35,796 bases of DNA from positions 1 through 35,796 of the forward strand of contig NKIB01000025.1 of the NCBI GenBank assembly GCA_002256025.1, in the 5' to 3' direction. The stretch is from Asterionella formosa (taxonomy: Eukaryota). Position 1 is the first letter of the stretch, and every line of letters begins with the position of its first letter. Positions 9,851 to 32,186 of the stretch are shown here, piece by piece. The translations under genes and the position numbers were made by a program. Under the pieces are notes generated by a model that searched no databases, had not been told where the DNA came from, and saw only the letters and a program-made list of their open reading frames with translations.

Positions 9851-11493
9851 GAGCATTGCCACCGCATCGACCAAATACCAAGCCAATTGAAGTTGCGAGT
9901 CATTACACGTCATGATGCGTTGTGTTGGTCGAAAAAGAAAAAATATTTTAGCCACCGCATCAACCAAGACCAAATATGCTTTGGTCTTGATCGAGGATAA
10001 CCCCCTTATCGACCAAATATCAGGAATTTGGTCGATTAGACTCCAACCGTAGCCAAATAAAAGGAGCATTTCTATTGGTTTAGATTGTGGATCACGCCGG
10101 CAACATAACATCAACTGTTTAATTGATCCACAAACGCTTACAATACACATTTACTTTACTCTCTTGATGAAGACAAATAATAAACTTAAGTACAAAAACC
10201 TTTGAATAATACCGGCAGCTATCTATAAAATGTTGTCCTTTGAGTCTTTGATGATCCCAATAAGATATCGTCATCCATTGTTGTCAAAGCAGGATGCTAC
10301 ATGAGAAGGAGCAGCAGGAGCAGTAGGAGCAGTAGGAGCAGCAGGAGCAGGAGCAGCAGCCAACGAGGATGATTCATCGTCAGTTTCAGACAAAACCAAA
10401 GTTGGATTATTTTGGCGCTGTCAAGAGCAACAATCGATAGCGATGTGCGAGTTTCGTCAAGGCAGCGTTGTTCCTCGTGTACTGTGATGTGTCATTGTTG
10501 GCAGACTGCTGCATATCCCTGGCTAGTATCGATATCTTCTTCCCTTGCATGCCATGGGTATATTGCTGTGTAACAGTTTACTGTGTCAATGGTTGATTAA
10601 TCAGCCGAAGAATTTAAAAAATGTATCCAAGAGAGTTGTGCCATTTAACGAAGGGTTTCACGCCAATAAAGGCAATGTCGTTTAATAGAACAAAATGAAG
10701 GAGGGATTAGGTGTGATCCAAGTGCATCTCAATAATTCAAGTGCTTCCAGTACTCCACTGTCCCACCTGTCATCCACCACTGATGATTTTGATGTAGTAG
10801 ATGATTCCAAATGAAGGAAAAATAATATAGATTAAATGTCAATGCTAGTATGATTCATTAGAAAGCTAGGCTATCACTCTAGCAAATTGGAAAAACGGAA
10901 GGTTTTTCTATTCTAGAATACCAATATACAAATGCATAGTCATATTAGTTTTTGAAGGGCAGTTTAGATAGGCGTAGTACTCGCTGCGTAAGAATAAGGA
11001 ATTTACAGGAAACATGGTGCTACAATTATTCAAAAAACTACAGGTACAGACTACCGGTAGCTAAGCGACTTCCTTTGATCCTCCGTCTCCTCCTTCGGTT
11101 GCCTTTTCTCGTTTTCTTCCTGTATATGTTTAACTGGTATGTACGGAACTGTAGGAGCGGTCGTCATCTGATGAGTCGCTATCGTTGATCATTTCATCAG
11201 GCAGATATGGATGAGTACCCTGGTATGCAACAACCACAAACCACGCAGTGCATCCCATCATTTTCTTAATCGGGCTTATTAATATTACGATACACATGTA
11301 ATAACATTCTAGTGCTATTTCTATTTGCTAAAAGTTTCGGCGCGAGATTTGACTATTCTAGGATTTGGTCGATGCGGCGGGAAAAAATATGAAAAATTCG
11401 ACTATTGATAAAAAATTTCTCAACCAAGTGACGTGTATTGATATTTTCAACTGCAATTGGCTTTGGTATTTGGTCGATGCTGTGGCGAAGCTC
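9851..11493. mobile_element. Non-autonomous DNA transposon with long terminal inverted repeats (PIF/Harbinger-like)
   Basis: Left end gagcattgccaccgcatcgaccaaatacca-agccaattgaagttg matches the reverse complement of the right end, gagcttcgccacagcatcgaccaaataccaaagccaattgcagttg. Subterminal (c)gaccaaat repeats occur at both ends. Flanks are TAA (9848-9850) and CAA (11494-11496), a near 3-bp target-site duplication. No intact ORF inside. Confidence 0.8.
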
Positions 11494-11641
11494 CAACACC
11501 CAACCCACACGAAATTGATGCAATTCTTTTCCTATTAGCGGTACCGTTGCCTATTTCTTAGCGTAACACAAATATAGACACATACGTGCTTTTTGTGTCT
11601 GTGTATCATATTTCATTGTGTGCGTCACATCTAAAAAATTA

Positions 11642-14286
11642 GCCTCGAAATAAGCCCTTTTTCGAAATTTGTTTCTACGTCGGAGTGTTAATTATGTGGT
11701 TACTTCACATGAAATAATGTGATTTCACAAAAAAACTTTGCACTATAGACTGAATTAGTTGATGTTTCAAATAATTCATTCAAAGTTCAACTAGCTAAGT
11801 CCTGCTCTTGAGGCTATTTTCATAATTCATTTACGACATGCATCTTCCTTTGTGAAATAGTAAGGATATTTGTGGTGTCTTAATTCATGCTACAGTAGGC
11901 GGTGTCTTAATTCAGCTAAGGTTTATGGTTGTGCACTTCACATAAATAATATTTACTATTATACTGAACAAGATTACTTGTTGTGGTTTCATGTGGTGCT
12001 GATGGTTCACAATCATATGGTTATTTCCAAGGCAGGAATAGTTGATGTTACAACTAAACATTTTAAAAGTTCAAGATAAATTTTTTAGAGGATAAATCAT
12101 TGCAAAAGACAACTTCACTACTACGTAATTGTTTGATTGCAATCTGCCCTTATTTGATTGAGAAAAATGGAGCGAAATGGATCTCGAGAAAAATTGTGAC
12201 ATGATTCGTGCTGTAAGCAATAACCAACCCTAATGAGCACAAAACAGGTACAGAACGAATCATTTAGTATTGAATTTGAAATGCTAAACTAAATATCTAT
12301 TCGAATTAGTGTGTGTTATCGACTGCAAATTTTCGGAGTGTCATCGGGCATGAATTGATGGAGAAAATCGAAGCGATGTGGTTGTCGGCAACTGGGTGCA
12401 TGAAGCATACTATCAACAATCATCCTTACCATCGATATTGTCAGCATCCAATATGAATTCTCTTATTCTTTTACATAAACTATATTTCGTATGAATTCTA
12501 AAGATACAAAATATATGAATAACATACCTGTACTGTGAATATGTCTGGAATGGCATTGTGATGCTGAGTGTGTTGACCTCAGCTAATGAATAGGTATGGA
12601 ACCAGGTTCCTGGGACCAGGTATTGGTATAGAAGGCCTACACAGCACTATGATACATACCACATACTACTACCAGTACCAGGTACCAGACATACATACTA
12701 ACAAATAGCTATACTGTATGGTACCACCATGTACTCCTGGCTGGTAGGAACCAGGTCGTTGTTACAAGTGTGAGACTGCAGGTTTGCCCTACCAAGTATT
12801 TCCGTCTTCTTCCCCTTCTTGTTGCAATAGGAATTATGCCGTTCGTACTACGTGCATACTGTGGAACTGTAGGTTGCTTTGCCCTACCAGCATTCCCGTC
12901 TTCCCCTTGTTACAATAGAATATGGCGTTCGTACTGTGAATATCTTAAGAGAAAACATTGGCTGTGGCCTCTCCTTCTTGTCATATTTGTTGTAGATCAC
13001 ATTTGTAGCATCAGAATTTTTCCTGACGAAGTAAGACTGCGCCAGGTTTTTTCGTGTAGATTGTAGGTTCTGTTGGTACAACGATGAAGTCATGGCTGCG
13101 CCAGGATTTTTGACCCCCTCTGAATTCATGAAGACAACATTTAACCACCACTGTGCACAAAATGTTGTTTTCAACATGGGGACGACCCTTAAAACCAGCA
13201 TCCCCCTTCTAGCTTTTCAGTTCCAAACCATTAACAAATCCTTCATCAGCCAAGAACTCAGATATTGTTTGTTGCAACAACAGAAGTTGGAATAATGCAA
13301 CATTGAGATTGTAAGCAATCGATGCTTTTAAGGTAAGATTTATTTGCTTACTATTTTTGCTATCATATCACCAAGCGAAGGATAATTCATACTGATATGC
13401 TGTTGTTTTCAAAATTCATTTGACATTTGAACAGGCCTTTTCAGAAAAGGAGTGTTCTTTGGAAAGCATGAGTGATAGAGGGTGAAATGATACAAAATGG
13501 AGACCCGCAATTGAGGCCTTTAAGGTAAGCAAGCTCAATCTTCAGTTTTTGTAATTGTATCAGCAAAGCGAGCGATAAATCACATGGTTCTGTTATTGTT
13601 GTCTACATTTATTTTACATTTTAGCTGTCCATTTCACAACAGGAGCATTCTTATGAACGCCGCGAGTTGTGGTGCTGCCTGGTTGTTGCCGGTTTGTTGT
13701 TTGAATTCGACTGCCCTGAGGAACAGTTGAATACTACTACATGTGTGTGTTGCTCTCTGCTGTTGCTGGTTCTATCAAATGAATTACTGACACACTGTTG
13801 TTATGTAAATCTTTGCAGGTCAATGAATAAGTCATTTCAACGACAAGAAGGAAGCCAGTGTGTGATGCATTCATGTTGCAACTTGGCACAATGATGCCTG
13901 TTCAAGAGTGAATAATTTTTCCCTTCTGGATGAATGGATTCTCTTCGTCTTGCAATGTCCTTATAGATGTCTCATAATGCATGCCTTCTCAAGACTGAAG
14001 ATTCCATTCTGATAGAACAGCTTTGTTTGATTGCATATCGAGATTTGTTTCCCATGTAATGTGGAATACCGGTGGTTGAATTAGCAATCAAGGTGATCAT
14101 GTAAGATAATGATGATCAGGAATGCATGCATGATACTCTGATCAAATAATTAATGTGATGATGTATTCATATAATATATAGATATATTTAAGTAAGCATT
14201 TTGATGTGTTCAACTAATTCATGTGATCCATTCAAAATCAACTAGGCTTATTTACGCCATGATGGTCACTTCATGTAATATGCGGC
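11642..14286. mobile_element. Probable decayed DNA transposon flanked by TTA/TTA; its left end recurs at 35585
   Basis: TTA|GCCTCGAAATAAGCC at the left and TAATATGCGGC|TTA at the right give a short, imperfect TIR. The gaattagttga motif (~11752) recurs inverted as tcaactaattc (~14210). The left ~140 bp is homologous to 35585-35785. The right boundary is tentative. Confidence 0.5.
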
Positions 14287-14351
14287 TTAGATGCACCTTA
14301 TCCAATACAGTACACAGCACAAACAACCGAATTTCTTGTGTGGCCACTTCA

Positions 14352-14404
14352 AAAACATTGGAGGACACACAGAAACCCTGTTTCTGCGTGTCCTCCAATG
14401 TTTT
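14352..14404. repeat. Hairpin: 25-bp arms (1 mismatch), 3-nt loop
   Basis: aaaacattggaggacacacagaaac-cct-gtttctgcgtgtcctccaatgtttt. Confidence 0.92.
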
Positions 14405-14720
14405 CGGTCACAAGAATCCAATTGAATATTCGATTTTAGTTTTACACTGACACGACTACCTGGTAGTAGAAATGTTGTGTTGCTGCATGATACACTTACC
14501 AGTACATTATTACAAAATTTGTTGTTGCAACTGCTGCTGTTGCCATTGTTGCATTCATGATTGTTGCTTCATTTCACTGTGTTGCTTCTTCTCCAAACGT
14601 CTTATGTCCTTGCCCACCATTCCATCATCTGTTCCTCTCTTGGCAGGAGGCAGCAGCGCAAGCAATAAACTTGCTGAATCAATTGGCGTCAATCTCTATA
14701 ATGCACCAGCCATTTCCATC

Positions 14721-15700
14721 ATTCATGAAAGTGACGAGGATGAAGGAGACAAGGACAAAAGTGATGATGACAGCATAATCCTGTCGTTACTCTCTTCTGG
14801 AGAGGAAAACACATTCGAAAAGCGCAAGTTTTAGAGAACACAGTACAAGAGGAAGTCCAAAGAATCAAGCAAATGGTGGACACGTTTTCTTGACCCTTCC
14901 ATTAAAGCCATTTATTGGACCGAACCAAATGGAAGAGAAGCGATAGATTCAGGAGAATGTTCAGAATCCCATATTCCGTTTTCAGAGATCAGCTTCTTGA
15001 TTTAGCTGTTGAAAAATGGTGGCTTTTATGGAAGGCCGACAAAGTTGACTGTTGTGGCCTTCCAGTGGGCGACTTTGAGTTTAAATTACTTGGAGCTCTA
15101 TTTATACTTGGGATAGCTGCTACTCATTTTGTTGTTAGTATGAACACAAATTTGAGTGAAGAAACACATCGCTCATTCATCTACATGCCAAGAAGTTATG
15201 ATGAACAATACAGTTTTGTGGTCAATGAATACCGTGACATTGGACTCCCTGGATGTGTTCTTGGTTCAGTTGATTGTGTAGTTCTTACACATTGGCTGGG
15301 ACCATTGCTCTAGTCAATATTTTCACATGTAAACAGGCAAAGAGGGTGTTCCATCCATTGCATATGAGGTCATCTGCACAAGCCGAAAATTCATTCAGGC
15401 AGTTTCACCTAGCCATCCTGGAGCTAAAAATGATGAATACATAGTCAGAACCGATGTTGCAGTGCTGAAACTTTTACAAGGCGATGAATGGCTACACTCA
15501 AAAGGATGAAGTGCAGTAGTGAGCATAGCAGGGACTATCAATCATTTCATGGGCTATACCTTATTTGCAATGGCGGATATCTTTGCTGGCCATGTCTTCT
15601 ATATCCTTTAAAAACAGGACTTGCTGGAAGTCAGACAATGAGGTGGTCAGCTATGCTTAAGTCTGTTCGCAAAGACATTGAAGGAGTCTTTGGTATTTGG
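14721..15700 (+). pseudogene. Degraded PIF/Harbinger DDE transposase (Plant_tran/DDE_Tnp_4-like)
   Basis: Fragments across frameshifts and stops: FRRMFRIPYSVF, GLPGCVLGSVDCV..HW, YLICNGGY and SVRKDIEGVFGI. These match the Harbinger consensus FRRRFRM / GFPGMLGSIDCMHW / YLADGIY / RKDVERAFGVL. Confidence 0.88.
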
Positions 15701-16422
15701 TATGACTTGTCCCCTTTCAGTGATTCAATAGCTCCTTTTCGATTTGGTGGCCGGCCAACCATCAATGTGGAAAAAAGAAATCGGTAAGTGCTATCAGCCA
15801 TCTTTGGATCAATCCACAAATGTTAGAAAAACTGACACATGTGTGTTGCTTCTTTCAGGATAATGGTAGACAAACAGTTTTTGTAAGTTACAAGCAGCAG
15901 TGTTGTAGCCCATTTATCGATCGATACTTTCTCATTCAATCTTCAATTGATACATTCTTTTACAGAAATATGCATCAGTGACTTCCTCAATTTGTGGTAA
16001 GTGAAGATAGAAGCGAAATGCATGTTGTTGTGTAAGCTAAACATGAACAGCTAACAATCATGAATTGCTTCTCTTTGTTAGTATGGCTGATTGGAACAAC
16101 AAAACGGATTCAATTGTAATGGGAAAATGCGTGAATGCAAACTCAGATCGATCAGGAGGAGTAAATGGAACAAAGCAGAGGAACAACAGCAAGGCAACCA
16201 GTACAACAACCTTCAGAATAGGATTGGGGGGGGGGAAGGTGGAAGAGAATGCTGAAGCACCAATCATTGTGATGAGAGCATTGTAGAACATTCTGTAGCC
16301 ACTCAAGATATAGAAACATAAAACCATTCTTAAATATAGTTCTAAATTTCGATCAATTTCATCCTCCTATATTCATCATAGTTGTTATTTGCAGACTTAG
16401 TTTATTAACTTAATCTTTATCA

Positions 16423-17262
16423 TCAGCAGCCTTCTTGGGATCCCAGACTTCTATAGCTAGTCTGTGACCTTTTCTCTTGGTCCCCATCATTAACGATTAT
16501 CACTTGAACATCTGCCTTGTATGTTTGTGGGTTTCTTGGCATTGCTTTAAAAAAAATTCGCACTTGAGAAGCATATTCTGAATCAGTTATTGTTGGCTTC
16601 ATCCTGTCCAACAGGTTCAAGGTTTTTTCTAGGTCATCCAGCGGGCCCTGTCGATGCAACACATTAGCAGTCTCTTCCAAAGCTTTTGCTGTATGTAGCT
16701 TTGCCCACATGCTTTGAGTAATCAAGGTATTTTTGTGCTTGATTTTCCTAGATTTGCGATCCATACAGTGATCTTCATGCTTTCGAGCTGCTCGAGGCAG
16801 TGGAATGCTGATTGCATCGCCAAGCACCACTGCAACATGGGGTGTCAACTTTGGGTCCCTGCGAAAAATTTTAGCTGTCAATGTTCTTGTTGTATTACCA
16901 GAATTGGGGAGGAAGCTTGTTTTCGATTCAGGGGTGATGCTCAACTTGACCTTTCTGTTCAAGGCCAAATCCTTTCTGAACTCTTTGATCATCATGTCAT
17001 TACATGTGTTGTGGAAGACTTTGCCACTCTTCATAGAATCAAAATTTACTGGCAACAAAGGGATAACGGCACACCTCATCTTGCTCCTTGAATAAAAATA
17101 GTATCGGTAAAGAGCTTCAGAGGTCATTGGTTCATCCTTTTTCTTAAAGGAGCAAGCAAAATATTTCCGGGATTCAACCGAAAAATGCGTAGAGTCTAAT
17201 GCTGCAATGATTGCCTGCTTATATGCCAATAGATAAGCCATCTCGTTTGCTGTTTTGTTCAT
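16423..17262 (-). mobile_element. Probable second (DNA-binding/accessory) ORF of the Harbinger element, likely decayed
   Basis: A 279-aa basic ORF convergent with the Harbinger transposase relic, matching the two-gene layout of PIF/Harbinger elements. No domain was positively recognised. Confidence 0.45.
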
Positions 17263-17356
17263 AGATGCAAGCCAGTCATAACATGCATACCTGGATATGG
17301 GCTAGCAGAGAAATATTGGAGCATGCCTCTGGTGAGTAGGAAGAGTACCTCAGGTA

Positions 17357-17389
17357 ATCTCCATACTACCAAGCTGGTAGTATGGAGAT
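17357..17389. repeat. Perfect 15-bp-arm hairpin, 3-nt loop
   Basis: atctccatactacca-agc-tggtagtatggagat. Confidence 0.92.
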
Positions 17390-17440
17390 GACAAATATGA
17401 CCAATACATACTATGTATGTGGCCACCAGACTTGAGTGAA

Positions 17441-17647
17441 TGGATTTATGGGAGGCTGCCTACTGATGCTACAGACAGTATTTATTTCAAACAGGGCAGG
17501 TAATAAATTTATGAGCAATCACACATTAGTAGAAGTAAACAATTGGATTTATGGGACGAGGCTGCCTAGTACTGCTGCTACAGACAGTATTCATTTGAAA
17601 CAGGGCAGGTAATAAATTTATAGAGCACACATAGAAGTAAACAATTG
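17441..17647. repeat. Imperfect tandem duplication, ~103-bp unit x2
   Basis: tggatttatggga..gctgccta..gctacagacagtatt.attt.aaacagggcaggtaataaatttat..agaagtaaacaattgg occurs twice back to back. Confidence 0.9.
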
Positions 17648-18019
17648 GTAACTGTATTTCTCTGTGTCTGCATCATACTATGCTTTTGTTGTGATATGTT
17701 CAGTGTTTGTTTATATTTTGCTTACTTAATATGAAAAGCAGGAAGGTCTGGTAATCATCCCACATTAAACTATTTCCAGGTTCTCACTAGGATGTTGAGG
17801 AGAATCTTTTCGTGAATAAAGGGGAGTATAATAATATGAATATTATTCTGTGGCTCACCAGTACCAGCAAGTTATGGTAATTTTGTTGTACTAAGGAATA
17901 AGCTGTCGTTATCCCATATTAAAATATTTATTTAAGCAAAATGACCGCATCTGGTTGCTTTACCTGCAAGTTGCGGTCATTTTCCTGAAATGGACAAAGT
18001 GTTACCGGACAGCACAGGT

Positions 18020-18820
18020 CAGTGATATTATGCTGCAGTAAAACTGCGGGCTTTTTATAGAGAATGACAGGCAGTATACTGGTATACTGTATTCACGTGG
18101 CGAACAGTTAAGTATTTCAATATTGAAATGACAGTACCAGGGGTATACCAGCACTTATACTGATACTGCTTCCAAAGCATTATTCTTATTGTCACTCAGT
18201 CATTTGCGACCGCTCGCGCGCAATTTTTTCGGCCAATAACAAAGGATGCAGCAGGCAATAATGGCAGCTACTTAAGTGCTTTGGTTCAATCATATTAATC
18301 TACGACTTGATCATCATCCATCCCTAATGTGATAGTCATACCCATTGCTTTACTGACCACAACCTCATTCCAGTTATGTCTATTCATTTTTAGAAATAGC
18401 ATCGCTTCAAACACAGTAGGTGATGTTAACTTTCTCAAACAAGTAAGAATGTGCTTGGCAATGGAAAAGAGCCTTTCACAACTAACAGAAGTACCAAGGA
18501 GGAGGTCAAGACAAATATAATTTATTTAGTATGCCGATTTTTTCTATTTTGGTGTTGCTTAATAGGCAGCCCAAGCATTCAACAGAATTTCGCTCTCCAA
18601 TGCTAGAAGACATGCCGGATTTTCTGAAGATTCCTACATAGGAGTATACTGGCAGGCTAGCAGACCAGTATACTGTACTGGCAAAAATTTGGAGCAGTAT
18701 GGAATTTGGAATATAGAATGACAGTATACTGGTAAACTGATACTGTGTCTGGAGCAGTATCAGTATCCAATACCGCAGTATACTTTCACCAACCTCTGCC
18801 AGACAGCGACATATTTTATC
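18020..18820. mobile_element. MITE-like relic with degenerate inverted ends rich in CAGTATACTG motifs
   Basis: cagtaaaactgcgg (~18035) versus ccgcagtatact (~18773), and atactgatactgcttcca (~18157) versus tggagcagtatcagtat (~18750), both in inverted orientation. Boundaries approximate. Confidence 0.45.
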
Positions 18821-18922
18821 ATAAATAGTACTAAAGGACATCTTCTATTCATAGCACGAGCGATTCAGCGAAATAAATAGCGGAATTCCACTATTTTCAA
18901 AAACGAGAATACAAAGCAGCAG

Positions 18923-19005
18923 ATGACTATGACTTTCAGGAAAACATTATGGCTTTCAGGAAATTCCTATGACATTTCCTTGGGATTCCTGAAAGTCATA
19001 GTCAT
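18923..19005. repeat. Perfect 20-bp inverted repeat with extra partial copies
   Basis: atgactatgactttcaggaa (18923-18942) and ttcctgaaagtcatagtcat (18986-19005); further ctttcaggaa and ttcctgaaa copies lie inside and adjacent. Confidence 0.92.
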
Positions 19006-19157
19006 TTCCTGAAATCGCATAAGTGCAAAAAATTGAAGATCAATGCAAAAAGGGATATAAGTGTTTATAATGGCAATGATAGCAAAAATTGACGACTCCA
19101 ATGTCATTACAATTTATGGTGGCCTCGTTCTATCTCGTAACAACTGCTGGTTCCAAG

Positions 19158-20251
19158 TCCTGATAAAAGGTGCTGAAAACGCGTCATCATGGAAAAGAGG
19201 AATCTATCTGAAAGGAATCTTAGCCTATCTCTCCCCCACCTTGATCGTTTTTCGATATTTCTTGTGATGTATTATTTACAATATATACATTTTATAAGAA
19301 TTCATATATTTCCTAGCCGGCGTTTTATTTTTAAGCAAACTCATATATTACCTTGCTGGCATTCCATTCCACGATTTACAGCATAATACGGTTGTTGTCT
19401 CAAAGGCATAAAAAGTTAATGCTCAACGCTGGGGGACCACTGCCGCATTGCTTTGTTCAGGTTCCAATCGATCAATGTTTTACTCATCATCGTGTTCATT
19501 TTTTGTTTGAATTTCCCACCTTTGGCCGGTCTGTGTTTGTTTAGGTGACTCGGATACTTTCTGATCCGTTGCGGTGCCTTCCGTTGCATCGCCAGTCTCT
19601 TATTCAAATCATTGCAGAAAAAATAAAGCAACTTGTTTGATTTTACAGATATCTGGTGCTTACTAGCTATGTGTCAGGCTACATAGTACAGTATGAGGAG
19701 TCAGATTTGATATTGCAGAGACAAAACCGATACATACACCAGGCATTTCCACTTATACTGGTATTCTAGACTCTACACTATATACTGGTACTGGTATATC
19801 TTTCATTACATCAAATCTGATGAAATCCAAATCAGCTGAATCAACAGTAATACTGGTACCCTGGTAAAGTAGGTAAAATCTGCTGGATCGAAATGACTTG
19901 ATGGATGTTAGATATGTATCTGATGCTAACGGTACTAGTCTAGTACAGTACAATATCCAGTACCAGGGGACCACAGTTTGAACCAGTTTACAAAGTGTCA
20001 GGCATATGTATTGAGGCAGGTAGTAGGCACAGGTACAAAGCTACACTGTACCAGGACCACTGTTTGAACCAGTATATACAGAATTGTGCATGTGTATTAG
20101 ACATGCAGGCGCAGGTCTGAACACTAGTCTTTGCATTGTTTGATCAAGATTCCGTTTCCTCATGTGCTTCCACCTCCTGGAATCTTTTTTCTACATGGAA
20201 AATATATTAGTGACATAGATGATGATGTGTTTTCAGCACCTTTTATCAGGA
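19158..20251. mobile_element. Segment bounded by 33-bp inverted repeats (outer 23 bp perfect); candidate MITE
   Basis: tcctgataaaaggtgctgaaaacgcgtcatcat (19158-19190) versus the reverse complement of 20219-20251, 31/33 identical. No clear target-site duplication. Confidence 0.6.
19962..20125. repeat. Degenerate tandem duplication, ~88-bp unit
   Basis: accag..gaccac.gtttgaaccagt...gcat.tgtatt...ggc.caggt occurs twice. Confidence 0.7.
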
Positions 20252-20379
20252 TCCTTACCAAGTCAATGCGCTTAAACAAACAAAAATAATTGGAAGGAAC
20301 TCTTTGCCAACTTTCCATTCCAGTGGTAAAACAGAATTTGAGAGGATAGCAGGGAATGAGAACAGATATGCAAGACATG

Positions 20380-21020
20380 CTATGGAAAGAGCAGCTGATG
20401 AAACTCCAATGAAATCAAAGAAAAATGCAAGACAGAGACATGCAATTACCAACAAGCTAGGAGAAGGAAGCAATTGCCAGACAAGACAAGGAAGCAATTG
20501 CCAGACCAGACAAGAAAGAGTGGATCAAGTTAATTAAAAAAGAAAATGAAAACTTCCAGTCGACGAGAGAATTTTGGAAAGTTGTCAGAGTCACACTGTT
20601 AAGAAAGAACACCAAAAACGAGATGGGTGTTCCGAATTTAAAAATGTCATGTTGACCGGTGAGACCATTTCCAAAGCAAATTGGTCGATACGGTATAGAA
20701 AAGGTGTCGATTTACAGAGATATTTGCTCATGTCACAAGTGATGCAAAAATCAAACCGGTACTGGCAGTAATGATGGTCAATGCTTTGCGAGGGGAGGCC
20801 ACCGGTATTTACGTGGAAGAAGCATTATTAAATGCTGACGTTGACAAGGACATTTATCTTAAGCCCCCTCAATGTTTAGTCCAAGTTGATTCCGATACAC
20901 ATGTTTGCAACTTTGTGAAAGCTGTCAACGAGATAGTACAAGCTCCACGATACTGGTCCAAGACGTTTGCAAAATGTGTCATCAAAAAACCAGGGTGAGC
21001 CAAATTGCCCTTTGTTAATT
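20380..21020 (+). pseudogene. Ty1/copia LTR-retrotransposon reverse transcriptase (RVT_2) remnant
   Basis: Fragments EWIKLIKKENENF..FWKVV, KTRWVFRI, GVD/FTEIFAHV and VEEALLNADVDKDIYLKPP..VCNFVKAVNEIVQAPRYW match the copia RT consensus DV.TAFLN.L.E.IY..P / KALYGLKQAPR.W. Contains frameshifts and stops; truncated before YVDD. Confidence 0.88.
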
Positions 21021-21874
21021 AATTAACACGACGGAACAAGAATGAACGAATTGATCGATTACGGTCCTTGCTAATTACCGGTGGTACCAGGTACCCCGGT
21101 AGGAGCGAAAACTTTATATCGTTCCGCAAACCCTAACCCCTATCGTCATGATGTTACCTTGAATGTGTCTAGGGTTAGGGATACAGTTACCGGTAGGGAC
21201 GAATGATTGCAATACTGGTACCAGGTACTGGTACTTGGGGTAACGAAAAATCATTTTCCTACTTACTATTGGACAAACAAATTTTGCAATTTCACGACCA
21301 TTTAGCCATTTTTGAATTCTCGACAATACTGTACACCTTTGATACGGACAAATGAAAATAAGTAAGGGACATTTGCTAAATGACGATGTTTTTGTATTTT
21401 GGTTTCATGTACCGGTAGACTTAGCGGATGACCCACGATCAAACGACATTTTCAAACACGTATAATGAAAGACGAAAATGAAAAGTGGTGTACATAGGAC
21501 ATAGCATGGATGACTGTTTAGCACTGAAAAGGCATTTGACCCAACAAGAAAGCAACAACCCTCAAGCAGGCATCAAACAAAAACAATTCGATTTGATTCG
21601 TCCACTGTCGGAAGCGAACGAACAAGGGGACATTGCTCTGTTCAGTGATTAACAGGCCGGTATTTTGGCTTCTGGACGGATACCAAATGTCGCGTCAGTA
21701 CCTTTCGGTTTCGACAGGAAATCCCTCGATTATTCTAGATTTACATGCTTGCCTTTTCCTTGATCATCATATTTCAAAGTTGATAAAATAATAATTTATG
21801 AAAAGAAGATAAGAGCAAAAGAATCACAAATTCCGTATATATTCGATTCATTTGCTTCAGGAAATAAATCAAAG

Positions 21875-24137
21875 ATGAAACACTTAGTTTCGTCATCTCT
21901 TTTGCTCTGCTTCAGCCTCCTTTGTGGAGCTGTTGCAGGCCAGCGTGCTGCCTGGATGAGCGGAAAGTGGGGAGTCGGATACCGCATTCCTGCTGGAGGA
22001 GTGACCAGCAACGGCATTACAAACTTTTACATCTCGGCCTATAACATTAGTGGAGCCGTAAACCAAATCGTGGATATTGGAGGAGTGAGTTGGGTCATCA
22101 TCAATCTTACTGGTGGAGCGTATGGTGATGTTTACATGGCGTGGCATTCGGTCTTGACCAACCTAACCCCCTCATCGACGCCTCCTTATCCTGCAAACGG
22201 TGGGAGAGATCTGTTCATGGAGCTCGCGGATGCGTTCCAGGCCAAGGGTATCAAGGTCATTGCTTGTGAGTAGTTCGAATGGCACTACCACCAATGGTTG
22301 TTACAGCGAGGTCGCAAAATCTGGACACTGAACACTTGAACTAATGACTGCTCGCTCTGCTCTGCTTCACACTGCACCCTTTTTCACAGACATTGCAACT
22401 CAAGGTCCAGCCATGTTGAAACATGGTGTTACGGCTGCCAATGACTATAATGCAACTTGTGGATGCTCACAAGGCATGATCAATTGGTCGAACTACGTGA
22501 CAACCTTGTACGGTAATGCAAGTGACGCAAACTTCAAGAAAGCGTTTGCCACTGTCGTTATTGATGAGTATGCTGCACGATATACCACAAAGATAGACGG
22601 ATGGTGGTTTGACCACGCAAGTTACGGCAACATTCCTCTTCTCAAAGACACTGTCCGCGCATACAACAATGCTACGGTGCTTGCATTCAACGACGGCCAA
22701 AACGTCCCCTTGATCAACAACTACCCAGGGATCGAAGATTATACGTTCGGGCATCCTAATCCAATTGTTAGGAACCCTTCCAGTTCCATTCTCAACTTGC
22801 CGATGGTAACTTCAATTGAGGCCAGGAACACAAGCGCTAATCCCGGCTATTTTGTAGGAAGCAATGGCGAACTCTCGCTTGGTCACATATTCATGCCAAT
22901 GTGCGCCGACTGGAACACGGTGGGATCACCATTAGTTTGGAATGTGACCCAGGCCGTGGATTGGATGAGTCGGGTACTCAAGGCAAAGGGAAGCTGGACA
23001 TGGAACATCCCTCGAGAAAATAATGGATACACTACGCTCTCATTTATGAACTACACCGATGTTGCATTTCTGAAGCAAGTGCTTGCTGCTCTCCCGACTA
23101 CCACTACCAGTCCAACTCAAACTCCTACTTCTATCCCAACTACAGTGTCACCTACCTTCGCTCCAACGTTACAACCAACAACTTCAGCTCCTACTCAATC
23201 TCCGACGTCCGTTCCAACGACCGCATCTCCAACGTATTCCCCTACGTCACAACAACCAACAACTTCAGAACCTACTCAAACTCCTACTTCTGTCCCGACA
23301 ACTGCCTCACCTACGTCCGGCCCGACGTTACAACCAACAACCTCAGCTCCCTCTCAAAATCCAACATCTGTTCCAACTACTACATCTCCAACATATTCCC
23401 CTACTTTACAGCCTACCAAAAATCCTGGTTCCCCTGTGCCAACAACTCGAACCCCTACCCAAGCACCAACTTTAGCTCCGACCAAAACACCAACGTCAGC
23501 TCCCACTAGAGCACCTACCAAAGAACCAACGTCACCTCCCACTAGAATCCCTACCAAAGAACCAACTTCACCTCCCACTAGAACACCAACGTCAGCTCCC
23601 ACTAGTAGACCGACCAAAGAACCAACGTCTGCTCCCACTAGAACACCTACCAAAGAACCAACGTCGCCTCCCACTAGAACCCCTACCAAAGCACCAACTT
23701 CAGCTCCCACAAGAACACCAACGTCAGCTCCCACTAGTAGACCAACCAAAGAACCAACTTCAGCTCCCACTAGTAGACCAACCAAAGAACCAACTTCAGC
23801 TCCGACCAGAACCCCTACCAAAGAACCAACTTCAGCTCCCACTAGAACCCCCACCAAAGAACCAACTTCAGCACCGATCATAGCCCCTACCGAAGAACCA
23901 ACATCAGCTCCGATCATAACCCCTACCCAAGAACCGCTACCTACATTGATTCCGACACAGATACCTACAAGTACTACCGCTGCGCCAACACAGATTCCCA
24001 CCACTTCCCCTTCCAGTATCGTTCGTTTGCTTGATACTACATCTTCTGAAAGCAATGTGAAAGAAGATCAAAGAACTCAGGGAAGGCATGAGGTGTTTTT
24101 AAATTTCATTCGGCGTATGTATGTAAGGTACTTTTAA
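21875..24137 (+). CDS. Secreted glycoside hydrolase, GH107-like (sulfated fucan endo-fucanase) catalytic domain plus Pro/Thr-rich C-terminal stalk; exons 21875-22265 and 22390-24137, about 712 aa
   Basis: Signal peptide MKHLVSSSLLLCFSLLCGAVAG. Removing the phase-1 intron (GTGAGT at 22266, CAG ending 22389) creates KGIKVIAYIATQGPAMLKHG. Other motifs: RAAWMSGKWGVGYRIP, DLFMELA, IDGWWFDH, EDYTFGHPNPI, NLPM, LGHIFMP and SWTW. I recall these from gammaproteobacterial GH107 fucanases. Confidence 0.82.
22266..22389 (+). other. Spliceosomal intron of the GH107-like gene (124 nt)
   Basis: GTGAGT donor, CTAAT branch-like motif at ~22341, pyrimidine tract and CAG acceptor; splicing restores the Tyr codon (T|AC). 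Confidence 0.9.
23095..24020 (+). repeat. Coding tandem repeats (PT repeat / mucin-like): PTxxPT, then PTKEPTSAPT[RS]x units
   Basis: Translation shows about 300 aa of 4-residue-periodic Pro-Thr repeats, with recurring ccaacttcagctcccactag units at the DNA level. Confidence 0.95.
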
Positions 24138-26763: not shown

Positions 26764-27114
26764 TTACCGCTTCCCTCCTCCACGTCCACGCCCACGTCCT
26801 CTTCCTCTGGATTGTTGACTTTGACCCGCATTCGTTGGCACCACAGCTCGCTCCTTGTTGGAGGGCTCATCAACCAGCAATGCATCCAAGTTGAGTGATT
26901 CTGGCAATAGCCAGGCACGCATCGTACTTCCTCTTACGCTGAGAACTTGAATGGTCTTTGGCGCCTTGCCTCTCACAGTCATCTTGACTTTGCGCAAGTG
27001 ACAATTCATGGTGGCATCCACCCCCACGACCGTCCCTTGCAAGACAGTCCCGTTCTTCAATTCAATCGTCACTTGTTCGCGATTCAGTTTCTGAAGGAAT
27101 TTTACCAGCTTCAT
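26764..27114 (-). CDS. SmD1: Small nuclear ribonucleoprotein Sm D1
   Basis: MKLVKFLQKL..EQVTIELKNGT..GT..GVD..MNCHL (Sm1), LSVRGS.MR..LLPESLNLD.LLVD (Sm2) and a C-terminal RGRGRGRG tail. Confidence 0.96.
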   Translation of the reverse strand: MKLVKFLQKLNREQVTIELKNGTVLQGTVVGVDATMNCHLRKVKMTVRGKAPKTIQVLSVRGSTMRAWLLPESLNLDALLVDEPSNKERAVVPTNAGQSQQSRGRGRGRGRGGGKR

Positions 27115-28282
27115 TTTATTGTAGAAATAGAATAGAATGGAGTTTGTATAGAACTAGTAGAACTAAGTAGAACTAGATGGGAATATGTCGAAGTAGAGCG
27201 ACAGGGGGAAGGGGGGGGGGGGAGAAGCGACAATAGCCTGCTCCAATGAAACAGTCACGTCTTGATCGGCGTTGCTGATACAGTTGGTGGTAGGATGATT
27301 TTCATGAACAGATTGTTACTCATCCATCAATTATATATATGAATATAAATAATATTCATGTATATAAAATGCACATAAAAGAGTATTCTTATATCCATGC
27401 AAGTACCGCCGGTATTCGCTTAGATTTTATCATATCATACCTGTACCCGTATTTCATATATTTTTATGCAAAAAAAATATACAGGTCAAAGGCCGTTTGA
27501 TGATAAAGGGTTATGGGCTTACGGTCTTGTTCTCTCGTTTGCTTCGCCGGCCTGCCTGGTAGTATTTTCACGTTCAAATACGCCCTGAATAAAATAATAG
27601 TCAACAGTACAGTGAACCAGGTACCACCAGCTAGAACCGTTTGAAGAGTAGCTTCGACATAAAATCTATGGTATGTTCCGGTAACTCCTGGAAGGAGTTC
27701 CAGTTACAGCTAAGGTACTGGTACCAGGTACCTTGTCTGGCGTATAACGCCGGGAGTATTTTAGCTCGTGGTATGTACCGGCAATACGCTCGATGGGGTA
27801 AACATACCGGTATTTCGGTAGACTACCGGCAGTTGCGGTAATAGACGGTTTTTATGATGACGAGAACAAAGCTAACTTTCTTGTTGACAACAACATGTAG
27901 ATGTTCAAAATGGTGTAGGAAAACAGGAATAATACCGTACCACCACGTACAGGACAACTAATATATGTGATCATGCTCACAGAAACATGGCAACGAAATG
28001 GGGAAAGCCCCTTGATGGACAAGATCAGGGTGCAACTCTGGACCTTCCAAATTGCCGACCAGTATTGGAGCTAAACATACTAGGTAGCCTAGAGAATTGA
28101 ATTTCGCAAAAAATGAACCAACTCTCTCTTTAACACATTCGAAGGAATTTGACAGTAAAACAAAAGTAAAAATGTGTATAGGAATCAACAGGAACAGATT
28201 TTCCAAGATGAGGGTCTATCCTGAAGATGGCTCTTTTGGAGTGAAATAAATGATGTAATTGCATCAAAAACGAGAGCTTGGC

Positions 28283-31200
28283 TTACCCGAAAAAGGATTT
28301 AAATCTTGAAATCATGCTTGAATCCGTTTCTGCTGGTTCGACTATACCATTTGGGGAGCCTATGGTGCTAGTAAAGATTGACCTTTGTGGACTGGCGTGA
28401 ATTCCCGTTGGTCCACTCATGTATTCATTTTCGCATTCGTCACTCATCACCAAAATGTCTTCAACGAGCCGACTGTCTCGGCATTTCTCTTGAATTACAT
28501 CAACAATCTTTGCCAGGGTTTTTTGATACTGCAAACGAGAATGGACTTCAGCAATATACGTGGCTTGCTTCATTTTTAGCTCTTCCTTGATCTCGGCTTG
28601 CGCCAGGTTGAGGTTTTGCACTTGCTGCTTGTATTTTACGACTTCAGCTGAAATTTTCGCGTTTTGTTTATTGAGTTGTTTTGCGTGTTGGTTGAGCGCC
28701 GCAAAGGAAGCGCCAGCCGATGCATTTGCATCCATCAGCCTCTGATTGTTTTCCTTTAGCAAGTCGAAGTCAGTTCTGAGTTGGGAATTAAGGCTGCGGA
28801 GCTTGAAAACTTCTTTCCGAAGGTATTCTAACATCTTGCCTGACTCGTCCATCAAAGTTTGTTGTTGCGCAGTGAGCTGGCCGACAGCTGCAGGGGCTGG
28901 TGGCATAAATGTGTTGGTGGCCGCGACAGTGTTGACAATCGGGACAGCAGACACCTCCTCCTTCGTGGCCGCTTTCGCTGCCAAAATTTCTTTCGTCTTC
29001 TCCTCAGATCTCTCTTCGGCTCGGACTCGAGCGGCTTCGGCATCTTCAAGCTTCTTCTGAAGTACCTTGAGTTGATTTTCCAATTTGGCTTCTTCTTGCC
29101 TTTCCTTCATGGCCTTTCGGAATTTAGGTCGCTGCAACGCGCCTCGAACTGTGGATTGGAGTATGACTGATGCGTTAACATTCTTTTTCAAAATCGATCG
29201 AGCGACTACCATTCTCCACACTCTCTGTATGACCGTTGCTTTGTAGTTGCGTCTCAACTTGACCAAGGCATCACTAGCCTCATTTCGTCGACCCCAACAC
29301 TGGACGACAATGCAAGCGTTACGAAGCCGTGTGTACTTTTGGCGTTCCATGAACCGGCGCATCATGGCGACTGCTCGAATCGCTGCGTTTCTCTTTGTTC
29401 TAAATCTCCGCTTTTCAACATAGCCACGACCAACTCTCTGGATCTCAATGGCCGACATGGAAAGTCCACTTAATCGCTGCGCCTCCAAATGCTCCAGGGC
29501 ACCGGCACGAAAGTACGCTCGCGTCTTCCCAATTACAAATGCGCGGATGACCTTACCCTCCTTTTCAGTTTCCATTGACTTCAGAACCATGGTCAACAAG
29601 CGTTCTACGTTTACACGAACCTTTTCAGATTCCTCGCTGCTTTCATGTGCAGCTGCATGTTGCTCGCCTTTAACCCAAAGCGACTTGAAACGATCCAAAA
29701 CGATTTCATGTTCCAAACGATTGGGAAATGCGGATCGCGAAATTGTTACTGCGGCTACGACACCAGCACAACGTAGTTGCTCCACGGTCGAAAGGTGCTG
29801 CATAATTCTTGGTTCCTTCAACGTGTTCGGCTTGATGCATCGAATGTAGCGGGTTCTTGTCTCACCAAGGGAACCCATCAAGGATGATAGTTGAGTCCTG
29901 AACTTGGTCCAAACGGTCTGTTGGACCAATCGTGACGAGGCCATTTTCCTGGGCGCAGCCCTTGGATTTTTCGGTTGCTTCTTTATCGCACCCTTAACTT
30001 CATTCATCATTGCCTCATTCTCAAGTTCGTTGGCGACAATCGCGTTCGATGACTTCTTGGCACATTCTAGTAAATCACTTGGCAATGCATCGTTGTTCTT
30101 AGAGACGAAGTTGGTCGCATCATAAACCACTGGACCAGCGTAATGCTTGACACCAAACTCATAGTCGTGAAAATGCTTTTCTGACATCAAGCAGTCAGAG
30201 TCTCGATTCATTGCTTGCACCTTGCTCACAAAGGCGACGTCATTTCCCTTTGGTCGGACACATTCTTCATTCAAGACGGCAATCAATCCCATGCGGCCTT
30301 CCACCAAATTTAAGACATCAGCATTGTCCTCATACATGATTTCACCCAATTCGATTCCTTCAAACTCGTACTCGGCTTGGACAGACCGGAAAATATCTTG
30401 CGTAAACTTTTGCTGCAGTTTTTCATTTGCATAATTAATGCAGAGCTGTTCGAATCGATTCGTTTCAAACGACTCAAATCCAAAGATATCCAGTAGTCCA
30501 ATAACACCAAACGACGAGGACATGTTACTGCCCGCGACATAATTTTGTTCTGCTGATGTAGCATCATTAATGGTCCTGACCAACCACAAAAAGGTTTTGG
30601 CATAAATTTCTTTTGCCAGGGCATCACACGATTCCTTGGCTTTGTCAGCCTTGAGTGGAACCTTGAAATCTTCATTCCTTGCTCTGACGGTCCGTTGTGT
30701 CACTGCTTTGAGTATGGATTCATTGTCCACGCCCATGAGTCCTGAGAGTGTTGTCAATTCATCAGTACTAGATATGACACTTTGTTCTTCATCTCCTGGA
30801 TGGGGAGCAAAGGTAAGGTTACCCAATTGTAACACAATACATATGGCTCGGAGGAGAGTTCTCAATGACTCCTCCGTGACCCCAACGAGTCCCAATGCCT
30901 TTTGAGTCAATCCAAAGCGTTCTCCGTCCGAAAGACCTTCAATGGTGTTTGTTTCTGTCCAACCAACATAGGTGAAGGATTCCATGTCTGTTCCCACAAG
31001 TCCATCCCAGATGGCTTCCTTCACATCATCTTCCGCTGCCAATAATTGATAAAAAATGTGAAAGCTTCGTTCTTCTTCTTCATGGGAAACGACTCGAGAT
31101 TTTTCTAACAAATAAACTTCACATTTTGACCCAGCAAGAATACAAGATGGAATTTTATTTCCTGTATAGGCATTCTGTGGTTCGGCATCAAATTGCAGTT

Positions 31201-32186
31201 GCAGGTATTTTCCAAACCTTGAGGAATTGTCATTGCGGGATGTTTTGGCATTTCCAAACGCCTCCAAAAGTGGATTCGAATCCAAGACACGTTGAACAAT
31301 GATGGATACCTGGGGGTTGTTGTCATTGTGTGATGTTCTTTCTCGTGCTTGGACGGAGGCAATGTGATTCATGAGAATTTTGACAGTTTCAGTCTTTCCT
31401 GCTCCCGATTCCCCTGATACTAATATGGATTGGTCTATCCCATCCAACGCCAGGCCTCGATAACTCAGGGAGGACGTTTCATAGACATGTGGTTCCACCA
31501 AGGTCCGGGGATCCCCTTCCGTTATCATTTCCCAAACCAGCTTTTCTGCGTAGAGCGTTCTTCTCTCCTCGTTGTACAAGTCTGTCATCCACTGGTAGGG
31601 ATTAACGGCAATGACAATGTCTCCAGTTCGGGTGTACGGTTTGCCTCTAATGTGTCGGGCTTTGAGGTTGTAAAGGATGGCAGCCTGTTGTGGACGTGCG
31701 TGAGAACTCCTGTCGTGTATTTGACAAGTTGAGGATAAATGAATGCTCGCTCTCACTGCAGCGCTGACTGCAGCGCTTACTGCAGCGCTTACTGCAGCGC
31801 TTACTGCAACGTAACGTAAGGTAACGTACCTCATGAAGAAACGGAAGGTCCACCATGTCTTCCACTTCGTTGAGCATTCCGTTCTCATCTACGTTTTGCA
31901 AGGGCAGCGCCTTGTTGGCGTAGTCGGTCAGTTTGACGGCTATTCGATCAAACTTAATAGCTTTCTTTCCTCCGTCACTTTGAATGAGTTGCTCATCCTT
32001 GTAGAGAGGCAGCGACACATTGGCAATGTCGTGGTCGACAATGTCCACCACTCGTGCGGGAATCCAAGCGTACTCTTCTGAGCGGATGTACACGTTGTTG
32101 GATGTTCCTACTTCGGCCACGGCGGCTGCTGCGTTGGGAGCACGAGGCTCCGTTGTCGTTGGTTCCGTCGTTGCTGGCTCTGACAT
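28283..32186 (-). CDS. Myosin heavy chain (motor domain, IQ-like motifs, coiled-coil tail); exons 32186-31830 and 31684-28283, about 1252 aa
   Basis: P-loop GESGAGKT, switch I NDNSSRFGK, switch II LLDIFGFE, NYANEKLQQ, YIRCIKPN and QLRCAGV, followed by IQ-like repeats and a heptad tail. The intron (GTACGT at 31829, CAG ending 31685) joins DMVDLPFLHE to AAILYNLKARH. Confidence 0.96.
31755..31810. repeat. 12-bp minisatellite (actgcagcgctt x ~4.5) inside the myosin intron
   Basis: Directly visible tandem copies, followed by a short aacgt repeat next to the splice donor. Confidence 0.95.

What the first reader, a model, noticed from the sequence alone, without database searches (positions are those of the whole stretch)
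21875..24137. Intron-containing eukaryotic GH107-like endo-fucanase
Seen: the ORF track splits this gene in two. Removing a canonical 124-nt intron yields one secreted protein containing YIATQGPAMLKHG, DGWWFDH and EDYTFGHP. Established: GH107 enzymes are retaining endo-fucanases of sulfated fucans, characterised from marine bacteria, with an Asp nucleophile and an unusual His acid/base. Both residues appear present here (Asp codon 22611-22613, His codon 22752-22754). Diatoms secrete fucose-containing sulfated polysaccharides. Inference: a bacterially derived, domesticated fucanase that lets the alga remodel or shed its own fucan matrix, or attack brown-algal fucoidan. The family call rests on remembered motifs.
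Basis: partly seen in the sequence, partly recalled or inferred. Interest (0 to 1): 0.9.

Follow-up and report, generated by a model that had tools for sequence, protein, structure and literature searches.

The report
Freshwater diatom's own GH107 fucanase gene
A freshwater diatom carries and expresses a spliced, two-exon gene for a secreted enzyme of the family that bacteria use to cut sulfated fucans, so the alga may be able to cut such polymers in its own coat.

Summary
ATG 21875, exon 1 to 22265, a 124-nt GT..AG intron (22266-22389), exon 2 to the stop at 24137. RNA contigs of three runs from two studies join 22265 to 22390 exactly.

The 712-aa product has a signal peptide, a GH107 catalytic domain and a 346-aa tail, about 305 aa of it Pro/Thr/Ser-rich.

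GH107 membership is well supported. A family profile hits only GH107 structures at E 5e-24 to 3e-21, and GH29 next at 4e-4. The fold of the window's exon-2 product matches the five GH107 entries first. The Asp, the His and the -1 subsite Tyr/Asn/Trp/Pro are all present. The motifs are closest to Fda1/Fda2 (alpha-1,3 endo-fucoidanases) and to SVI_0379.

The host is a diatom: the neighbouring gene is 78% identical to Fragilaria crotonensis. The RNA runs are lake or freshwater samples, so attack on brown-algal fucoidan is unlikely.

The gene is not a lone recent import. Homologues occur in four Thalassiosira species, a choanoflagellate, an ichthyosporean and many eukaryote-like metagenome sequences. 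These are interleaved with bacterial clades, so there was more than one transfer and the direction is unresolved.

Enzyme activity and substrate remain untested.

The parts
21875..22265 (+). Exon 1 (130 codons plus the first base of a split Tyr codon). It encodes the signal peptide and the N-terminal part of the catalytic barrel.
   Evidence: RNA contig X1 covers 21876-22265 with no differences. It aligns to the N-terminal part of bacterial GH107 homologues.
21875..21937 (+). Approximate signal peptide (MKHLVSSSLLLCFSLLCGAVA). The cleavage site was not predicted by any tool.
   Evidence: This is the only hydrophobic 19-residue stretch with Kyte-Doolittle mean above 1.4, apart from one borderline window starting at residue 58. 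The conserved AxWMSGxWG of bacterial homologues follows directly after their own signal peptides. The call is an inference.
22266..22389 (+). Intron, 124 nt, phase 1, GTGAGT...CACAG.
   Evidence: The joint 22265->22390 (GT..AG) appears in RNA contigs of X1, X2 and X5. Homologues are collinear across the junction.
22390..24137 (+). Exon 2, including the stop TAA at 24135-24137.
   Evidence: RNA contigs cover 22390-23150. The stretch 23151-24137 is not covered by laid RNA.
22390..23096 (+). C-terminal two thirds of the GH107 catalytic domain.
   Evidence: The AF2 model of this piece has pLDDT 95.9. Its top five Foldseek PDB hits are the five GH107 entries.
22611..22613 (+). Asp codon (WWFDH), the predicted catalytic nucleophile.
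   Evidence: It aligns with Asp226 of the MfFcnA chain. It is invariant in 72 of 72 aligned sequences. The motif matches Table 2 of PMC10619423.
22752..22754 (+). His codon (EDYTFGHP), the predicted acid/base.
   Evidence: It aligns with the DDYTFGHP motif of MfFcnA. It is at least 90% conserved. The motif matches Table 2 of PMC10619423.
22689..22691 (+). Asn (LAFN), -1 subsite.
   Evidence: The motif matches Table 3 of PMC10619423.
22896..22913 (+). Pro...Trp (FMPMCADW): the conserved Pro and the -1 subsite Trp.
   Evidence: The motif matches Table 3 of PMC10619423. The Trp is at least 90% conserved.
23097..24011 (+). Pro/Thr/Ser-rich, mucin-like repetitive region (about 305 aa: T 94, P 77, S 37).
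   Evidence: Pfam PT repeat, E 9e-15. Tandem repeats with periods of 36-159 nt. Composition.
24012..24134 (+). C-terminal 41 aa, not repetitive, with no hydrophobic anchor.
   Evidence: A relative (P0200) ends in a similar way. There is no RNA support.

Best explanation
This is a real, expressed, spliced nuclear gene of a freshwater diatom. It encodes a 712-aa secreted glycoside hydrolase of family GH107, in the Fda1/Fda2/SVI_0379 branch. A signal peptide sends it into the secretory pathway. The (beta/alpha)8 catalytic domain should cleave alpha-L-fucosidic bonds inside sulfated fucan chains by the retaining mechanism of the family. In that mechanism Asp (22611-13) is the nucleophile, His (22752-54) is the acid/base, and Tyr, Asn and Trp hold the -1 fucose. 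The motifs are closest to the alpha-1,3-specific Fda1 and Fda2, so alpha-1,3 linkages are the best guess. The 346-aa tail, about 305 aa of it Pro/Thr/Ser-rich and probably O-glycosylated, would hold the enzyme in or on the cell's extracellular matrix. The most likely substrate is the diatom's own fucose-containing sulfated polysaccharide, with a role in remodelling, cell or colony separation, or release of the polymer.

Shown here: the gene structure, transcription and splicing, family membership, intact catalytic and -1 subsite residues, and the diatom host.

Inferred: secretion, endo-fucanase activity, linkage preference, tethering, and the substrate being the cell's own matrix.

My odds: GH107 membership about 0.95; endo-fucanase activity about 0.7; own matrix as substrate about 0.45.
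For: Gene and RNA.

Family:
- A profile of 27 sequences against PDB gives six hits. Five are GH107 (6dns 4.7e-24, 6dlh 4e-23, 8bpd 1.4e-22, 6m8n 2.2e-22, 6dms 2.9e-21) and the sixth is a GH29-like fucosidase at 4.4e-4.
- The window's exon-2 piece alone already ranks 6dns, 8bpd and 6m8n first.
- The AF2 model of that piece (pLDDT 95.9) has the five GH107 entries as its top five Foldseek hits (E 1e-9 to 2e-8, TMq 0.68-0.72). GH29 follows from 3e-4.
- P0064, the closest full-length clade-mate, gives the same ranking (E 5e-20 to 2.5e-17, TMt 0.72 to 6m8n).
- All 49 of 49 first-search homologues carry precomputed PF26376, which the Atlas names 'Mef1'.
- P0014, 51% identical to the exon-2 part, is BAJ00350.1 = SVI_0379. 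It is treated as a GH107 member in PMC7698502 and PMC10619423 (passages).

Residues: D74 is invariant in 72 of 72 sequences and H121 is at least 90% conserved. The Tyr, Asn, Pro and Trp motifs match published Tables 2 and 3, and most closely Fda1 and Fda2.

Bacterial context: in 2 of 3 loci examined the homologue lies among GH29 fucosidases and/or sulfatases.

Host: the neighbouring PAPS synthase-pyrophosphatase ORF is 78% identical to Fragilaria crotonensis, and all other named hits are diatoms.

Substrate plausibility: diatoms make and display sulfated fucans (PMC7896085 and PMC11240576, passages). Diatom EPS is often sulfated and contains fucose, and 3-linked Fuc is reported in a freshwater Thalassiosira (PMC4584364, passages).
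Against: - No enzymatic test exists for this protein. None exists for SVI_0379 either: its specificity is given as 'n.d.' in PMC7698502.
- The whole spliced protein could not be handed to the family, fold or search tools. The fold evidence therefore rests on the exon-2 product and on a 49-52% identical relative.
- The local Pfam copy lacks PF26376. It gave no domain hit for either exon piece at E up to 10.
- No sulfated fucan is documented here for this diatom or for its freshwater habitat.
- In the closest bacterial locus examined (Rubritalea, L005) the context is housekeeping genes, not a fucoidan locus.
- The 3' third of the gene model has no RNA support. A missed 3' intron or membrane anchor cannot be excluded.
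- The window holds no fucan-specific synthesis or sulfatase gene next to it.
Confidence: 0.6

Rival explanations
1. The enzyme works on foreign polymers: fucose-rich sulfated exopolymers of other algae, cyanobacteria or bacteria in the phycosphere or biofilm. The purpose would be feeding, clearing of epibionts, or defence, not remodelling of the diatom's own matrix.
For: Bacterial homologues sit in catabolic loci with fucosidases, sulfatases and a TonB receptor. Heterotrophic eukaryotes that eat bacteria or algae also carry homologues (Diaphanoeca, Abeoforma).
Against: The window holds no companion sulfatase or exo-fucosidase. The mucin-like stalk suggests residence in the cell's own matrix. 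The spliced form is assembled at word depths of 985 and 385.6 in two RNA runs. That speaks only for presence, because the tool warns that depth cannot rank expression.
Confidence: 0.15
2. It is a GH107-fold enzyme with a different reaction. It could be a transglycosylase that grafts fucan chains, an exo-acting fucosidase, or a hydrolase of another sulfated or fucosylated glycan such as a fucosylated glycoprotein.
For: Retaining glycosidases can transglycosylate (general knowledge). No member of the SVI_0379 sub-branch has been assayed. GH107 is related to GH29 exo-fucosidases. SVI_0379 itself marginally passes the Pfam GH29 cut-off, at 26.2 bits against 25.2.
Against: The catalytic His, which is a GH107 hallmark, and all the -1 subsite residues are those of characterised endo-fucoidanases. 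The motifs are nearly identical to those of Fda1 and Fda2, which are endo-alpha-1,3 enzymes.
Confidence: 0.2
3. It is a recent, lineage-specific import from a marine bacterium into this diatom. This is the strong form of the reader's 'domesticated' reading.
For: The family is rich in marine Verrucomicrobiota, Planctomycetota, Kiritimatiellota and Gammaproteobacteria. The best full-length hits of the first search were bacterial, at 57-58% identity.
Against: - Closer relatives exist at 72-75% identity, and they carry Pro/Ser/Thr tails.
- The window groups with eukaryote-like sequences (WINDOW+P0061+P0196 at 100, then P0064/P0062 at 88-89).
- The gene has a spliceosomal intron, 10 N-glycosylation sequons and a mucin-like tail.
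- Its G+C content is like that of other coding parts of the window.
Confidence: 0.05
4. It is bacterial contamination or a mis-assembly, not a diatom gene.
For: None beyond the bacterial relatives.
Against: It has a spliced intron, and the spliced form is found in polyA RNA libraries. It lies on one 35.8-kb stretch with a diatom PAPS synthase, a myosin, an LSM gene and others.
Confidence: 0.01

Closest known systems
Fda1 and Fda2 (GH107 endo-alpha-1,3-fucoidanases; GenBank AAO00508.1 and AAO00509.1, organism given as unknown in PMC10619423, as Alteromonas sp. in PMC7698502)
   Same: The motifs around the nucleophile (IDGWWFDH), the acid/base ([DE]D[YF]T.GHP.P), the -1 Tyr (GI[RK]V[VI]AYIATQGP..MLKHG), the Asn and the Pro..Trp are nearly identical. 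An Ala, not Asn, sits at the fourth -1 position (PMC10619423 Tables 2-4; window residues).
   Different: - Fda1 and Fda2 are bacterial, and their C-terminal regions are dispensable in vitro. The window protein has a Pro/Thr-rich stalk, an intron and N-glycosylation sequons.
- The LamG-bearing bacterial clade is only 37-40% identical to the exon-2 part. That this clade contains Fda1-like proteins is my own reading, from the matching residue numbering.
- Activity of the window protein is untested.
SVI_0379 of Shewanella violacea DSS12 (BAJ00350.1), a GH107 member of unknown specificity
   Same: 51% identity over 93% of the exon-2 part, and collinear over the whole catalytic domain.
   Different: It is bacterial and has PPC C-terminal domains. 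It is not the nearest clade in the trees.
MfFcnA, Mef1 and P5AFcnA (GH107 crystal structures 6dlh/6dns/6dms, 8bpd, 6m8n)
   Same: The (beta/alpha)8 D1 fold, Asp nucleophile, His acid/base and -1 subsite residues (PMC10619423).
   Different: Only 16-20% identity in the structural alignments. MfFcnA and Mef1 are alpha-1,4-specific. The loops and calcium sites differ.
GH29 alpha-L-fucosidases
   Same: A related barrel and Asp nucleophile. They are the second tier of hits (4.4e-4; from 3e-4).
   Different: The matches are far weaker than to GH107. The window has the GH107 His in the GHP motif. That GH29 enzymes use a carboxylate acid/base is recalled knowledge.

Membership tests
GH107 | Sequence similarity to the catalytic D1 domain of characterised members | tested here: met
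   The family profile hits all five GH107 PDB sequences at E 4.7e-24 to 2.9e-21 over profile positions 10-335. The window's exon-2 piece alone gives 6dns at 1.3e-3, 8bpd at 0.024 and 6m8n at 1.2 as its top three. It is 51% identical to SVI_0379.
GH107 | Match to the Pfam model of the family (PF26376, 'Mef1') | not testable with these tools
   The local Pfam copy gave no hit for this model on any protein. Precomputed PF26376 is carried by 49 of 49 homologues and by 95 of 102. The name comes from the Atlas.
GH107 | (beta/alpha)8 barrel like D1 of MfFcnA, P5AFcnA and Mef1 | tested here: met
   The window's exon-2 product (235 aa, pLDDT 95.9) has the five GH107 entries as its top five hits, with TMq 0.68-0.72. 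The full-length clade-mate P0064 gives TMt 0.72 to 6m8n. The whole spliced window protein was not folded.
GH107 | Catalytic Asp nucleophile | tested here: met
   The D of WWFDH (22611-13) aligns with Asp226 in the alignment to chain 6dns_A and with the Asp column of published Table 2. It is invariant in 72 of 72 sequences.
GH107 | Catalytic His acid/base | tested here: met
   The H of TFGHP (22752-54) aligns with DDYTFGHP of MfFcnA. It is at least 90% conserved.
GH107 | -1 subsite Tyr, Asn and Trp, and the conserved Pro | tested here: met
   The Tyr is the split codon 22265|22390-91. Asn is at 22689-91, Pro at 22896-98 and Trp at 22911-13. These were matched by eye to Table 3 of PMC10619423.
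GH107 | Endo-hydrolysis of sulfated fucans with retention of configuration | not testable with these tools
   This needs an enzyme assay.
GH29 | Match to Pfam Alpha_L_fucos above its threshold | tested here: not met
   Neither exon piece gives a hit at E up to 10. Among homologues, P0004 scores 18.3 bits (below the 25.2 cut-off) and P0014 scores 26.2 bits as a partial match.
GH168 | Similarity to GH168 fucanases | tested here: inconclusive
   No chain titled as a GH168 enzyme appears among the six PDB sequence hits or among the listed Foldseek hits. No GH168 model was run directly.

The most novel reading that the evidence does not exclude
Diatoms, the producers of the 'recalcitrant' sulfated fucans, carry their own matrix-tethered GH107 endo-fucanases. 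A freshwater araphid-like diatom transcribes one. This would be the first producer-encoded fucanase. It would control the size, release or stickiness of the fucan coat, and so colony form and aggregation. It would also imply that fucoidan-like polymers and their turnover exist in lakes.
Probability: 0.35. Interest if true: 0.8.

Novelty: new member of a known kind. Interest (0 to 1): 0.6.

Why it matters
Sulfated fucans of brown algae and diatoms are treated as slow-to-degrade carbon. GH107 endo-fucanases are treated as tools of specialised marine bacteria (PMC7896085 and PMC13668718, passages).

An expressed GH107 gene inside a diatom, with relatives in several Thalassiosira species, raises a concrete question: do the producers cut their own fucan? 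The gene can be cloned and assayed to answer it. The freshwater setting widens the question to lakes.

Six full-text searches turned up no paper that reports a eukaryote-encoded GH107. I judged this from the listings, and from passages in six of the listed papers. I could not consult CAZy's own taxonomic listing, and supplementary tables of diatom genome papers were not examined.

Tried and rejected
- Whole-genome search of the window's own assembly: none is held.
- Earlier findings of this scan: three look-ups, all empty.
- Local Pfam and NCBIfam on the exon pieces: no informative hit. There was only the PT repeat and a chance metallo-beta-lactamase match at 14 bits.
- First tree (50 rows, tail columns included): the window was unresolved on a basal polytomy. 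It was replaced by trees of the catalytic domain only.
- AU test on all 159 rows: not finished after two 300-s runs. It was replaced by a 68-row subset that I picked.
- Metagenome scan for close relatives, to look for a shared intron: the best locus is only 49% identical. tblastn seemed to show a shared intron site in seven loci at about 43% identity. Reading the DNA of two of them showed that their intron lies six codons further on, in a Gly codon at phase 2, so it is not shared.
- Pfam scan of 24 further window ORFs for sulfatases, fucosyltransferases or a second GH107: only an LSM domain turned up.
- The C-terminal F5/8 type C domain of P0064 folded poorly (pLDDT below 50), so nothing is drawn from that part of the model.

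Full report
**Observation.**
- The + strand has an ATG at 21875, the first Met after an in-frame stop. That frame ends at a TAG at 22271-22273. A second frame is open from 22332 to 24137.
- Cutting out 22266-22389 (124 nt, GTGAGT...CACAG, phase 1) joins T|AC into a Tyr codon. The result is one 712-aa protein reading ...GIKVIA-Y-IATQGPAMLKHG....
- Bacterial homologues read GIKVIAY[C/A/M]ATQGPAMLKHG with no gap at this point.
- RNA settles it. Of four runs laid, three (X1 at depth 985, X2 at 27.4, X5 at 385.6; two studies, two of the libraries polyA) hold a contig that joins 22265 to 22390 with GT..AG ends.
- X6 holds a variant that differs at a few percent of positions and keeps the intron. A small X2 contig (depth 3) keeps it too, which fits pre-mRNA or DNA.
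- Laid RNA stops at 23150, so the 3' third of the model rests on the open frame alone.

**What it encodes.**
- The N-terminus is the only clearly hydrophobic stretch. It sits where the bacterial homologues have their signal peptides.
- There are ten N-x-S/T sequons.
- The catalytic part ends at about 23096. A 346-aa tail follows. Its first 305 residues are 68% Thr, Pro and Ser. No C-terminal anchor is visible.

**Family.**
- The exon-2 piece alone already ranks three GH107 chains first in PDB, though weakly.
- A profile of 27 relatives hits the five GH107 sequences at 4.7e-24 to 2.9e-21 across the whole D1 domain. The only other hit is a GH29-like fucosidase at 4.4e-4.
- The AF2 model of the window's own exon-2 product is confident (pLDDT 95.9). 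Its five best Foldseek matches are the five GH107 entries (E 1e-9 to 2e-8, TMq 0.68-0.72). GH29 starts at 3e-4.
- P0064, the closest full-length clade-mate, gives the same order.
- All 49 homologues of the first search carry precomputed PF26376. The Atlas names this model 'Mef1'. The local Pfam copy lacks it, which explains the empty scans.
- P0014, 51% identical, is SVI_0379. It is a listed GH107 member of undetermined specificity (PMC7698502 and PMC10619423, passages).

**Active site.**
- The Asp of WWFDH (22611-13) and the His of TFGHP (22752-54) align with the catalytic pair of MfFcnA.
- The Asp is invariant in 72 of 72 sequences and the His is at least 90% conserved.
- Against the published motif tables (PMC10619423), the -1 subsite Tyr, Asn and Trp and the conserved Pro are all present. 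The Tyr happens to be the split codon.
- The strings are nearest to Fda1 and Fda2, the alpha-1,3 endo-fucoidanases.
- In bacteria, 2 of 3 loci examined place the homologue among GH29 fucosidases, sulfatases and a TonB receptor.

**Host and habitat.**
- The window also holds an APS kinase / ATP sulfurylase / pyrophosphatase fusion, a myosin, a GDPD gene, a methyltransferase and an LSM gene.
- The fusion protein is 78% identical to that of Fragilaria crotonensis, and every other named hit is a diatom.
- Three of the four laid runs are labelled lake water or freshwater.
- A role against brown-algal fucoidan is therefore unlikely.

**Relatives and history.**
- An exhaustive HMMER scan of 1.84 billion representatives finds only 163 relatives at E up to 1e-3.
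- The nearest are P0061 (72%, 279 aa) and P0067 (75%, 163 aa). P0061 starts at the first Met of the region that matches exon 2, and it has a Pro/Ser/Thr tail.
- Named eukaryotic members are Thalassiosira exigua, T. profunda, T. oceanica (partial) and T. minuscula, two MMETSP transcripts, Abeoforma whisleri and Diaphanoeca grandis.
- A scan of bacterial and archaeal genomes gave 17 loci. They come mostly from Verrucomicrobiota, Kiritimatiellota, Planctomycetia and Gammaproteobacteria.
- I built a catalytic-domain tree of 159 rows. Rows were domain envelopes of at least 190 profile positions. 26 near-duplicate cluster members and shorter fragments were left out. The model was LG+G4 with a quick search.
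- In that tree the window groups with P0061 and P0196 (support 100), then with P0064 and P0062 (88), among mostly eukaryote-like rows. The Thalassiosira, Abeoforma and Diaphanoeca sequences lie in three other places, next to bacterial clades (the same picture appears).
- On a 68-row subset that I chose, holding the window clade and the named Thalassiosira rows together is rejected (p-AU 3e-6). A clean split of 14 named bacteria from 8 named eukaryotes is also rejected (p-AU 7.8e-5).
- Both groups were defined after I had seen the tree, and the deep branches are weak.
- So there was more than one transfer between domains, with direction and dates open. The window's copy is not a recent import.
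- Other eukaryotic copies have introns at other sites.

**Mechanism proposed.** The product is a secreted, retaining endo-alpha-L-fucanase held in the extracellular matrix by a glycosylated stalk. It would trim the diatom's own sulfated fucan. Diatoms do make and display such polymers. None of the secretion, the activity, the linkage or the substrate has been tested.

**Novelty.** This is a new member of GH107 in an unexpected host. Its relatives sit in public databases as 'hypothetical protein'. Six full-text searches found no report of a eukaryote-encoded GH107. CAZy's taxon lists and the supplements of diatom genome papers were not seen.

Noticed in passing
window 2108-5272 (-): A single 1055-aa ORF fuses APS kinase, ATP sulfurylase (with a PUA-like domain) and inorganic pyrophosphatase. 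This is a PAPS synthase with a built-in pyrophosphatase. An identical protein is in the database. The best named hit is Fragilaria crotonensis at 78%. It makes the sulfate donor, but nothing links it to the fucanase gene 17 kb away.
   Followed up: partly
P0072 and its cluster: A GH107-like domain, a Pro/Ser linker and an Ice-binding-like domain (PF11999, E 1e-25) sit in one protein. The cluster has nine members from metagenomes.
   Followed up: partly
P0064, P0043, P0237: Relatives carry carbohydrate-binding modules after the catalytic domain. P0064 and P0043 have F5/8 type C domains and P0237 has a ricin-B lectin. P0064 is the window clade's closest full-length relative.
   Followed up: partly
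P0063: One 1060-aa eukaryote-like protein holds two GH107-like catalytic domains in tandem, joined by a Ser/Pro/Thr linker. The two domains are each other's nearest relatives in the tree.
   Followed up: partly
L033:690-830, L037:2860-3005 (also L030, L035, L036, L042, L045): Low-GC metagenome contigs (37-39% G+C) carry homologues at about 43% identity. In the two loci whose DNA I read (L033 and L037), a GTGAGT...TAG intron lies six codons downstream of the window's intron site. In L033, L035, L036, L037 and L042, tblastn also suggests a second break just before the GHP motif, which I did not read in the DNA. The intron positions differ between eukaryotic clades.
   Followed up: partly
tree: A clade of 21 rows holds one bacterial row with an exact genome match (P0016, a Planctomycetia MAG). 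Eleven of its other rows are 70-77% identical to an Opitutia MAG locus, and the rest were not checked. The clade sits inside a grade of Thalassiosira and eukaryote-like sequences (38 rows, support 94). The direction of transfer there could be either way.
   Followed up: no
window 21523-21847: The X6 RNA-library contig differs at a few percent of positions and keeps the intron. It replaces 194 nt upstream of the start codon with 118 other letters. This is a strain-level indel in the promoter or 5' region.
   Followed up: no
window about 10000-21000: An AT-rich stretch (37-41% G+C) has only short ORFs. Ten of its ORFs of at least 100 aa were scanned and none has a Pfam hit. The fucanase gene sits at the edge of it.
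   Followed up: partly
P0014: SVI_0379 marginally passes the Pfam gathering score of the GH29 model Alpha_L_fucos (26.2 bits against 25.2, a partial match). Annotation pipelines may therefore label such GH107 proteins as fucosidases.
   Followed up: no
window 28286-31888 (-), 26767-27153 (-), 6344-7303 (-), 779-1933 (+): The other genes of the window are a myosin (motor head plus IQ motif), an LSM-domain protein, a glycerophosphodiester phosphodiesterase and a Methyltransf_22 protein.
   Followed up: partly
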